Source of the DNA: Escherichia coli | GTDB lineage: Bacteria; Pseudomonadota; Gammaproteobacteria; Enterobacterales; Enterobacteriaceae | NCBI RefSeq assembly: GCF_003334315.1 | Contig: NZ_QOWR01000008.1 | Length of the DNA: 64,000 nucleotides | Direction: 5' to 3' (one strand) | In this document: in pieces, positions 22,918 through 23,008 of the stretch | How positions within the stretch are numbered: the first letter of the stretch is position 1 | Layout of the letters: each line of letters opens with the position of its first letter | The notes under the pieces: generated by a model | What the model saw: the letters and a program-made list of their open reading frames with translations, nothing else | Told to the model about the DNA's origin: nothing | Databases searched by the model: none | Translations under genes and position numbers: made by a program

Positions 22918-23008
22918 TTTTATTATTCTGTGTCATGATGCTTCCGTTATTAGCCTTTTATCGTCTTGTTTATATTTTTTGGGCCGGCATGATGCCGGCT
23001 TTTTTTTA
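22918..23008 (+). ncRNA. rseX: candidate RseX small RNA
   Basis: yedR-yedS intergenic position where I recall rseX mapping; strong terminator GGGCCGGCATGATGCCGGC + T8 at 22981..23008; 5' end not determined. Confidence 0.4.

What the first reader, a model, noticed from the sequence alone, without database searches (positions are those of the whole stretch)
22918..23008. Candidate RseX sRNA between yedR and yedS
A strong intrinsic terminator (GGGCCGGCATGATGCCGGC followed by T8) ends a roughly 90-nt plus-strand stretch in the intergenic region where I recall rseX mapping. I could not verify the transcript sequence from memory, so the 5' end is approximate.
Basis: partly seen in the sequence, partly recalled or inferred. 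Interest (0 to 1): 0.3.

Follow-up and report, generated by a model that had tools for sequence, protein, structure and literature searches.

The report
Known E. coli small RNA rseX

Summary
Confirmed and already known. Window 22917..23007 (+) is 91/91 nt identical to the curated K-12 MG1655 ncRNA rseX (b4603). It matches Rfam RF01401 end to end at 97.7 bits against a gathering score of 50. Gene order is the canonical yedJ-drpB(yedR) | rseX | yedS-hchA. rseX is present in 4880 of 5426 complete E. coli genomes. It occupies the same slot in E. albertii, E. whittamii, two unnamed Escherichia species and Citrobacter amalonaticus, and is more conserved than its flanks. An overlapping 42-codon ORF is not conserved. 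Published work describes RseX as a 91-nt sRNA that represses ompA/ompC, fimB, ihfB and fepA, the last in an Hfq-dependent way. It is silenced by H-NS/StpA and undetectable in wild-type cells (PMC7648144, PMC8313858, PMC11979758). Expression in this strain could not be tested. The 5' hairpin has no covariation support. Novelty: none. Interest: low.

The parts
22917..23007 (+). rseX gene (91-nt small regulatory RNA RseX)
   Evidence: It is 100% identical over 91/91 nt to the K-12 MG1655 ncRNA rseX b4603. Rfam RF01401 scores 97.7 bits against a gathering score of 50, covering model positions 1-94 of 94.
22905..22910 (+). Putative -10 hexamer TACAAT (5 of 6), ending 7 nt before the annotated 5' end. 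The best -35 candidates match only 2 of 6, so the promoter looks weak.
   Evidence: My own scan upstream of 22917. The consensus promoter scan found no plus-strand site with 9 or more of 12 matches here. PMC8313858 cites 5' RACE support for a putative sigma-70 promoter (Douchin 2006). The TAnnAT pattern is kept in all Escherichia copies but not in Citrobacter. The assignment of this hexamer is an inference.
22928..22965 (+). Invariant single-stranded core of RseX (nt 12-49), the likely target- and Hfq-interacting region
   Evidence: 32 of 38 columns are invariant across 12 copies from 6 species, including Citrobacter. Identity to the distant copies is 87-95% here, against 50-78% in the 40 nt upstream.
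22930..22954 (+). Weak 5' hairpin of the Rfam consensus (RseX nt 14-38: G14-C38, U15-G37, A19-U34 to U23-G30)
   Evidence: Taken from the Rfam structure line. 6 of the 7 pairs never vary, and G21-U32 is broken in 4 of 12 sequences, so there is no covariation. The hairpin is absent from the MFE and centroid folds. Its status is unproven.
22946..22959 (+). RseX nt 30-43 (GUUAUUAGCCUUUU), complementary to K-12 ompC mRNA positions -14..-1 (AGAGGGUUAAUAAC), which include the Shine-Dalgarno sequence
   Evidence: This 14-bp uninterrupted helix (including 3 G-U pairs) is the longest among the 26 translation-initiation regions compared. 38 of 1000 dinucleotide shuffles of RseX reach 14 bp. The result is suggestive only.
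22966..22980 (+). U-rich linker (nt 50-64), which varies in length between strains
   Evidence: T-run length varies in alignment columns 99-106.
22981..23007 (+). Rho-independent terminator: 9-bp stem, UGA loop and U8 tail. It is also the usual Hfq-binding module of such sRNAs.
   Evidence: One compensatory G-C to A-U change occurs in Citrobacter, and the other pairs are invariant. Mutations in the terminator loop of the truncated RseX+52 form strongly impaired fepA repression (PMC11979758).
22383..22685 (-). Context: drpB (formerly yedR), the divergent upstream neighbour
   Evidence: Aligns with K-12 b1963. PGAP calls the 93-aa form at 22383..22664 in an identical strain.
23319..24533 (+). 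Context: yedS, an intact 404-aa OmpC-family porin gene and the downstream neighbour
   Evidence: The translation has a signal peptide and no internal stops, whereas K-12 yedS is a pseudogene with stops and frameshifts. PGAP annotates it as 'porin OmpC' in an identical strain.

Best explanation
Window 22917..23007 (+) is the rseX gene of a non-K-12 Escherichia coli strain. It encodes the 91-nt trans-acting small RNA RseX. Shown here: the sequence is identical to the reference gene, it is a full-length member of the Rfam family, it sits in the canonical position, it has an intrinsic terminator, it is a conservation island, and it has no conserved coding potential. Taken from the literature on the identical K-12 sequence: transcription starts from a putative sigma-70 promoter and is silenced by H-NS, backed up by StpA, so the RNA is undetectable in wild-type cells. 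[quoted passage not shown] It also represses fimB and ihfB by pairing near their ribosome-binding sites or start codons. In addition it represses fepA through the loop of its terminator hairpin, in an Hfq- and RNase E-dependent way that does not seem to involve direct pairing. Inferred here: the invariant nt 12-49 are the functional single-stranded region, with nt 30-43 able to cover the ompC Shine-Dalgarno sequence. The AT-rich intergenic setting and the weak -35 fit H-NS silencing and low basal expression.
For: - **Identity:** 91/91 nt match K-12 b4603.
- **Rfam:** RF01401 scores 97.7 bits against a gathering score of 50, full length.
- **Synteny:** the order yedA-vsr-dcm-yedJ-drpB | rseX | yedS-hchA-hprS is as in K-12.
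- **Terminator:** 9-bp stem plus T8.
- **Distribution:** present in 4880 of 5426 complete E. coli genomes, of which 1623 are at least 99% identical.
- **Other species:** present between drpB and a porin gene in E. albertii, E. whittamii, two unnamed Escherichia species and Citrobacter amalonaticus, all above the Rfam gathering score at 70.9-97.8 bits.
- **Conservation:** the core nt 12-49 is 87-95% identical to distant copies, against 50-78% for the upstream flank.
- **Coding potential:** the overlapping ORF is not conserved. Its start codon is lost in 4 of 12 copies and its frame is shifted by T-run length changes.
- **Composition:** the intergenic region has a GC fraction of 0.20-0.40 against about 0.5 in its flanks, which suits H-NS binding.
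- **Target complementarity:** a 14-bp helix forms between RseX nt 30-43 and ompC -14..-1. It is the longest of 26 translation-initiation regions, and 38 of 1000 shuffles reach it.
- **Literature:** the 91-nt RNA down-regulates OmpA and OmpC (PMC7648144, citing Douchin 2006). H-NS/StpA silencing, the fimB and ihfB targets and ompA repression are in PMC8313858. fepA control by the terminator loop, with Hfq and RNase E dependence, is in PMC11979758.
Against: - Nothing contradicts the identification.
- No expression data exist for this strain, and native RseX has not been detected in wild-type K-12 (PMC8313858).
- The 5' hairpin of the Rfam model has no covariation support, and one pair is broken in 4 of 12 copies. 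The whole RNA folds no better than shuffles (z = -1.58).
- Whole-leader duplex energies for ompA and ompC are no better than for shuffled RseX (z = -0.39 and -0.08). The ompA pairing site has not been mapped experimentally (PMC8313858).
- The plus-strand promoter matches the consensus poorly.
- Part of the invariant core (nt 15-20) coincides with the -35 of a strong promoter-like site on the opposite strand. That overlap could contribute to its conservation.
Confidence: 0.97

Rival explanations
1. The stretch encodes a small protein rather than, or as well as, an RNA regulator. This would be the 42-codon ORF that starts at the ATG at 22935 and ends at 23063.
For: An in-frame ORF runs across the region (22800..23063). 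PGAP annotated the equivalent 42-aa ORF as 'hypothetical protein' WP_000979496.1 in strain JX21CE33.
Against: The ORF runs straight through the terminator, so the 91-nt RNA would carry no stop codon. No Shine-Dalgarno sequence precedes the ATG. Among 12 copies the start codon is ATC or ATT in 4. T-run length changes shift the frame, giving products of 18-42 codons with unrelated C-termini. The great majority of PGAP annotations do not call it.
Confidence: 0.01
2. It is a silent relic. The sequence matches rseX but does nothing in nature, because it is never expressed. Its conservation would come from other constraints, such as H-NS nucleation, the opposite-strand promoter-like site, or insulation of yedS by the terminator.
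For: Native expression is undetectable in wild-type K-12 despite several attempts (PMC8313858). The promoter has a poor -35. An 11 of 12 sigma-70-like site on the minus strand (22936..22909) overlaps RseX nt 1-20. About 10% of complete E. coli genomes lack rseX, and at least one lost it through an IS1-associated deletion.
Against: Conservation peaks inside the RNA, well beyond the overlap with the minus-strand site. Nt 29-49 are invariant in 6 species, including Citrobacter, where the flanks are only about 50% identical. The terminator keeps its pairing through a compensatory change. The RNA is produced when H-NS/StpA are removed, and it has specific mutation-sensitive targets (PMC8313858, PMC11979758).
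Confidence: 0.04
3. RseX is mainly a cis-linked regulator, or the leader, of the adjacent porin gene yedS. It would act either by read-through transcription into yedS or by pairing with the yedS mRNA, rather than as a general trans-acting sRNA.
For: rseX lies immediately upstream of, and on the same strand as, a yedS-type porin gene in all 6 species examined. Its established targets include the yedS paralogue ompC.
Against: A strong terminator and 311 nt of DNA with 20-33% GC separate it from the yedS start codon. The yedS translation-initiation region ranks 20th and 25th of 26 for duplex energy with RseX. Its longest helix is a 10-bp A/U run, which is typical of the background. RseX works in trans from plasmids in K-12, where yedS is a pseudogene (PMC8313858).
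Confidence: 0.04

Closest known systems
RseX sRNA of E. coli K-12 (gene rseX, b4603; Rfam RF01401)
   Same: The 91-nt sequence, the terminator, the strand and the position between drpB (yedR) and yedS are all identical. It is the same gene.
   Different: Only the strain background differs. Here the downstream yedS is an intact 404-aa porin gene, whereas K-12 has a pseudogene. The flanks differ from K-12 at a few positions.
Other porin-targeting enterobacterial sRNAs (MicA, RybB, MicC, MicF, OmrA/B)
   Same: They are the same kind of regulator: short sRNAs with a Rho-independent terminator that repress outer-membrane protein mRNAs. Overexpression of RybB or MicA gives a survival effect similar to that of RseX (PMC8313858).
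   Different: There is no sequence relationship. No other Rfam family reached its gathering score here, and the best other match was RyhB at 23.1 bits against 55. MicA and RybB are activated by sigma-E, and MicF, MicC and OmrA/B by EnvZ/OmpR. RseX is instead silenced by H-NS/StpA (PMC8313858).
SdsR and ArrS sRNAs (fepA repression through the terminator loop)
   Same: According to PMC11979758, RseX shares with them an unusual mode of fepA repression. It depends on the exposed nucleotides of the intrinsic-terminator loop, a far-upstream stem-loop in the fepA 5' UTR, Hfq and RNase E. The terminator loop in this window is the same as in K-12.
   Different: They are unrelated sequences at other loci. 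The RseX loop is conserved in Escherichia but differs in the Citrobacter copy (CATTTTG instead of CATGATG).

Membership tests
rseX (Rfam RF01401; E. coli gene b4603) | Scores at or above the family's curated gathering threshold with the covariance model, over the full length | tested here: met
   97.7 bits against a gathering score of 50, model positions 1-94 of 94, not truncated.
rseX (Rfam RF01401; E. coli gene b4603) | Sequence identity to the experimentally defined 91-nt reference gene | tested here: met
   91/91 nt identical to NC_000913.3 2033649..2033739.
rseX (Rfam RF01401; E. coli gene b4603) | Lies in the drpB(yedR)-yedS intergenic region, divergent from drpB and on the same strand as yedS | tested here: met
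   Gene order matches K-12 and other annotated strains. The same arrangement holds in 5 other species.
rseX (Rfam RF01401; E. coli gene b4603) | Rho-independent terminator with a U tail at the 3' end | tested here: met
   9-bp stem (6 G-C pairs), 3-nt loop and T8. It is kept in the centroid fold at -14.6 kcal/mol. There is one compensatory change across species.
rseX (Rfam RF01401; E. coli gene b4603) | 5' stem-loop of the Rfam consensus structure | tested here: inconclusive
   The pairs can form in the window sequence. However, 6 of 7 never vary and one is broken in 4 of 12 copies, so there is no covariation. The stem-loop is not in the MFE or centroid folds.
rseX (Rfam RF01401; E. coli gene b4603) | Non-coding: no conserved reading frame | tested here: met
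   The only ORF loses its start codon in 4 of 12 copies and is frameshifted in others.
rseX (Rfam RF01401; E. coli gene b4603) | Complementarity to the translation-initiation regions of ompC and ompA mRNAs | tested here: inconclusive
   For ompC, a 14-bp helix covers the Shine-Dalgarno sequence. It is the longest of 26 regions, and 38 of 1000 shuffles reach it. For ompA, nothing exceeds chance (635 of 1000). Whole-leader duplex energies do not differ from shuffles.
rseX (Rfam RF01401; E. coli gene b4603) | A roughly 91-nt transcript is made in vivo and is derepressed without H-NS/StpA | not testable with these tools
   No expression data are available for this strain. This is reported for the identical K-12 sequence in PMC8313858. 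The AT-rich setting is consistent with it.
rseX (Rfam RF01401; E. coli gene b4603) | Hfq binding or dependence, and repression of OmpA/OmpC (plus fimB, ihfB, fepA) | not testable with these tools
   Taken from the literature on the identical sequence: PMC7648144 (citing Douchin 2006), PMC8313858 and PMC11979758.

The most novel reading that the evidence does not exclude
rseX and the adjacent yedS porin gene might form one co-inherited, H-NS-silenced 'porin-swap' module. When silencing is relieved, RseX would lower OmpC and OmpA while the intact YedS porin is produced in their place. The adjacency is conserved from Citrobacter amalonaticus to E. coli, and both genes lie in the same AT-rich island. 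In K-12, where all RseX work was done, yedS is a pseudogene, so such a link would have been invisible. This window carries an intact yedS. I found no pairing signal between RseX and the yedS leader. That result fits yedS escaping RseX repression, but it does not demonstrate any coupling.
Probability: 0.1. Interest if true: 0.4.

Novelty: already known. Interest (0 to 1): 0.05.

Why it matters
It matters little as a discovery. rseX has been known since 2002-2006, is in Rfam and EcoCyc, and has recent mechanistic literature. The check has three practical points:

- Standard RefSeq/PGAP annotation omits rseX in nearly all E. coli genomes and occasionally places a spurious 'hypothetical protein' over it. 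Sequence-based recognition therefore adds information that the annotation lacks.
- This strain pairs an unchanged rseX with an intact yedS porin. That is a more natural background than K-12 for asking what RseX is for.

Tried and rejected
- **Whole-leader duplex energies.** RNAduplex-type energies of RseX nt 1-64 against the ompA, ompC and yedS leaders were no better than dinucleotide-shuffled RseX (z = -0.39, -0.08 and +1.24). Ranking against 24 other translation-initiation regions from the window put ompA 3rd, ompC 11th and yedS 20th. A U-rich sRNA against A-rich leaders gives long spurious duplexes, so this approach was uninformative. I replaced it with a longest-uninterrupted-helix count.
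- **Covariation test of the Rfam structure.** On 12 copies from 6 species, the sequences are too similar to give a signal. There was one compensatory pair, in the terminator, and none in the 5' hairpin.
- **Coding hypothesis for the 42-codon ORF.** Rejected on comparative grounds.
- **The minus-strand 11 of 12 promoter-like site (22936..22909) as the drpB promoter.** Rejected, because the drpB promoter was mapped much closer to drpB, between the old GTG-1 and ATG-22 codons (PMC7648144). The site remains unexplained.
- **The primary RseX paper** (Douchin et al. 2006, J Biol Chem, doi 10.1074/jbc.M600819200). It is not held in the library. Its results are cited only through later papers.
- **Other RNA families at the site.** RyhB, STnc430 and Esr41 gave only sub-threshold matches driven by the terminator.

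Full report
**Observation**

The sequence at 22981..22999 reads GGGCCGGCATGATGCCGGC and is followed by eight T at 23000..23007. The consensus scan reports it as a 9-pair stem (6 G-C pairs) with a 3-nt loop. It is by far the best terminator-like site in 21500..24500. When 22917..23008 is folded as RNA, this hairpin is the only element that survives in the centroid structure, at -14.6 kcal/mol. The RNA as a whole is not unusually stable (z = -1.58).

**Identity**

- A gathering-threshold Rfam scan of the whole window finds RF01401 (rseX, Hfq-binding RNA) at 22917..23006 on the plus strand. It scores 97.7 bits against a gathering score of 50 and covers all 94 model positions. A permissive local scan finds nothing else near threshold: RyhB, STnc430 and Esr41 give terminator-driven sub-threshold matches.
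- The curated K-12 MG1655 record annotates ncRNA rseX (b4603) at 2033649..2033739, between drpB (b1963, formerly yedR) and the yedS pseudogene. That 91-nt sequence occurs exactly, 91/91, at window 22917..23007.
- The 7.5 kb around it aligns with K-12 at 96.0% in the same gene order: yedA, vsr, dcm, yedJ, drpB, rseX, yedS, hchA, hprS.
Its coordinates are one base off at each end.

**Which genome**

Window 12000..36000 is essentially identical to several sequenced E. coli chromosomes, for example strain AHM9C68I. The PGAP annotation of that strain lists drpB and a 'porin OmpC' gene but no rseX. The same omission is seen in nearly all RefSeq rows. This is not K-12, for two reasons:

- The backbone identity to K-12 is about 98%.
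- The yedS gene is intact here (23319..24533, 404 aa with a signal peptide). In K-12 it is broken by stops and frameshifts and differs strongly in 23400..24400, with 68-86% identity.

**Distribution and conservation**

- The 91 nt are found in 4880 of 5426 complete E. coli genomes, nearly always once and on the chromosome. 1623 genomes carry a copy at least 99% identical.
- One genome without rseX has an IS1B element and a deletion that removes rseX, yedS and most of hchA.
- A degenerate-pattern scan of one genome per species found copies in E. albertii, E. whittamii, two unnamed Escherichia species, a divergent E. coli and Citrobacter amalonaticus. All pass the Rfam gathering score at 70.9-97.8 bits.
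- Wherever the fetched flank reaches, the copy lies between drpB and a yedS-type porin gene. In Citrobacter the tRNA-Ser and tRNA-Asn genes also lie downstream. The locus is therefore syntenic rather than mobile.
- In the 12-sequence alignment, RseX nt 12-49 are invariant at 32 of 38 positions. Variation is confined to the hairpin loop (nt 24-28), nt 6-9 and the length of the U-rich linker.
- Against Citrobacter, E. albertii and E. whittamii, the core is 87-95% identical. The 40 nt upstream are 50-78% identical, and the drpB-side spacer 51-75%. rseX is thus a conservation island, which argues for purifying selection although the gene is silent in the laboratory.

**Structure**

Counting the Rfam structure on that alignment gives no covariation for the 5' hairpin. 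Six pairs never vary, and G21-U32 is broken in 4 of 12 copies. The terminator has one compensatory G-C to A-U change. The 5' hairpin is therefore neither supported nor refuted. What is conserved is the primary sequence, as expected for a single-stranded seed or Hfq-binding region.

**Coding potential**

A mechanical ORF spans the site, and PGAP once called a 42-aa 'hypothetical protein' on it. It is not conserved:

- The ATG at 22935 is ATC or ATT in 4 of 12 copies.
- T-run length changes shift the frame, giving products of 18-42 codons with unrelated C-termini.
- The ORF runs through the terminator.

**Promoter and setting**

- A TACAAT hexamer at 22905..22910 ends 7 nt before the annotated 5' end. 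No -35 candidate matches better than 2 of 6, and the consensus scan lists no plus-strand promoter here.
- The drpB-yedS intergenic region is very AT-rich, with a GC fraction of 0.20-0.40 against about 0.5 in the flanks.
- Both features fit published data. Native RseX is undetectable in wild-type K-12. It appears in hns mutants, and more strongly in hns stpA double mutants (PMC8313858).

**Mechanism**

These statements come from the literature on the identical sequence.

[quoted passage not shown] 2006).
- It binds and represses fimB and ihfB near their ribosome-binding site or start codon, and it represses an ompA reporter (PMC8313858).
- It represses fepA through the loop of its terminator hairpin. 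[quoted passage not shown]

My own pairing calculations add little. Whole-leader duplex energies do not differ from shuffled controls. The longest uninterrupted helix among 26 translation-initiation regions is RseX nt 30-43 with ompC -14..-1, at 14 bp and covering the Shine-Dalgarno sequence. 38 of 1000 shuffles reach that length. This is suggestive, and it lies in the invariant core. For ompA nothing exceeds chance, which is consistent with the statement that the ompA site has not been mapped (PMC8313858). The adjacent yedS leader shows no pairing signal.

**Verdict**

This is the known rseX gene, in the known place, with the known sequence. It is not novel, and interest is low. The only mildly open thread is whether rseX and an intact yedS act as a linked, H-NS-silenced porin module. 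K-12 work could not have seen such a link, because K-12 yedS is a pseudogene. I give that reading a low probability.

Noticed in passing
window 22909..22936 (- strand): A near-consensus sigma-70-like site (ATGACA, 16-nt spacer, TATAAT; 11 of 12 matches) lies on the strand opposite rseX. It overlaps the rseX 5' end and putative -10, and its -35 falls in the invariant RseX nt 15-20. It is not the mapped drpB promoter, which lies next to drpB (PMC7648144). The weaker sites at 22766..22739 and 22747..22720 fit that promoter. It could be a divergent or antisense promoter, and it might contribute to the conservation of the RseX 5' region.
   Followed up: partly
window 23319..24533 (+): yedS is an intact 404-aa OmpC-family porin gene here, whereas K-12 carries a pseudogene with stops and frameshifts. 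It is the most divergent stretch of the neighbourhood, at 68-86% identity to K-12 in 23400..24400 against about 98% elsewhere. Other strains carry quite different alleles. For example, MS14386 has a 357-aa porin.
   Followed up: partly
window 14466..14552 (-): The DsrA small RNA gene is present, with Rfam RF00014 at 102.5 bits against a gathering score of 60, full length. It lies between yodD and yedP and is not annotated by PGAP in the identical strain.
   Followed up: no
window 32758..32847 (-), 33839..33914 (+), 47320..47395 (-), 49144..49219 (+), 51553..51628 (+): There is one tRNA-Ser(CGA) gene and four tRNA-Asn(GTT) genes with identical Rfam scores. This is the serU/asnT-asnW-asnU-asnV cluster (gene names from my own knowledge). 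asnT is followed directly by yeeJ, so no island is inserted there.
   Followed up: no
L014 719..847 (E. coli JX21CE33), equivalent to window 22935..23063: PGAP annotates a 42-aa 'hypothetical protein' (WP_000979496.1) on top of rseX in this strain. The comparative data show that the ORF is not conserved, so it is probably a spurious gene call. Conversely, rseX itself is missing from nearly all RefSeq/PGAP annotations.
   Followed up: yes
H1 NZ_AP021895.1 (strain 2018-11-3CC); L018 5121..5986 (strain EM20-18-50): IS1 has been active at this locus in other strains. An IS1A copy splits the drpB-yedS intergenic match in 2018-11-3CC. In EM20-18-50 an IS1B copy sits at a deletion that removed rseX, yedS and most of hchA.
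   Followed up: partly
L004 1944..2040 (Citrobacter amalonaticus S646): The Citrobacter rseX copy is longer, with a 97-nt match. It has a different linker and a different terminator loop (CATTTTG instead of CATGATG) but keeps the core. The E. coli terminator loop is reported to drive fepA repression (PMC11979758), so that activity may not be shared.
   Followed up: no
window 22686..23318 (drpB-yedS intergenic region): SNPs in this 'yedS-yedR' intergenic region have been used as host-source biomarkers for E. coli, for example for human and mouse. The paper never mentions that the region contains rseX (PMC11267920). In the alignment made here, strain-to-strain variation falls mostly outside the RseX core.
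   Followed up: partly
E. coli genome search: Two of the 4883 rseX matches lie on plasmids rather than chromosomes, and a few genomes hold two copies. I did not examine these.
   Followed up: no
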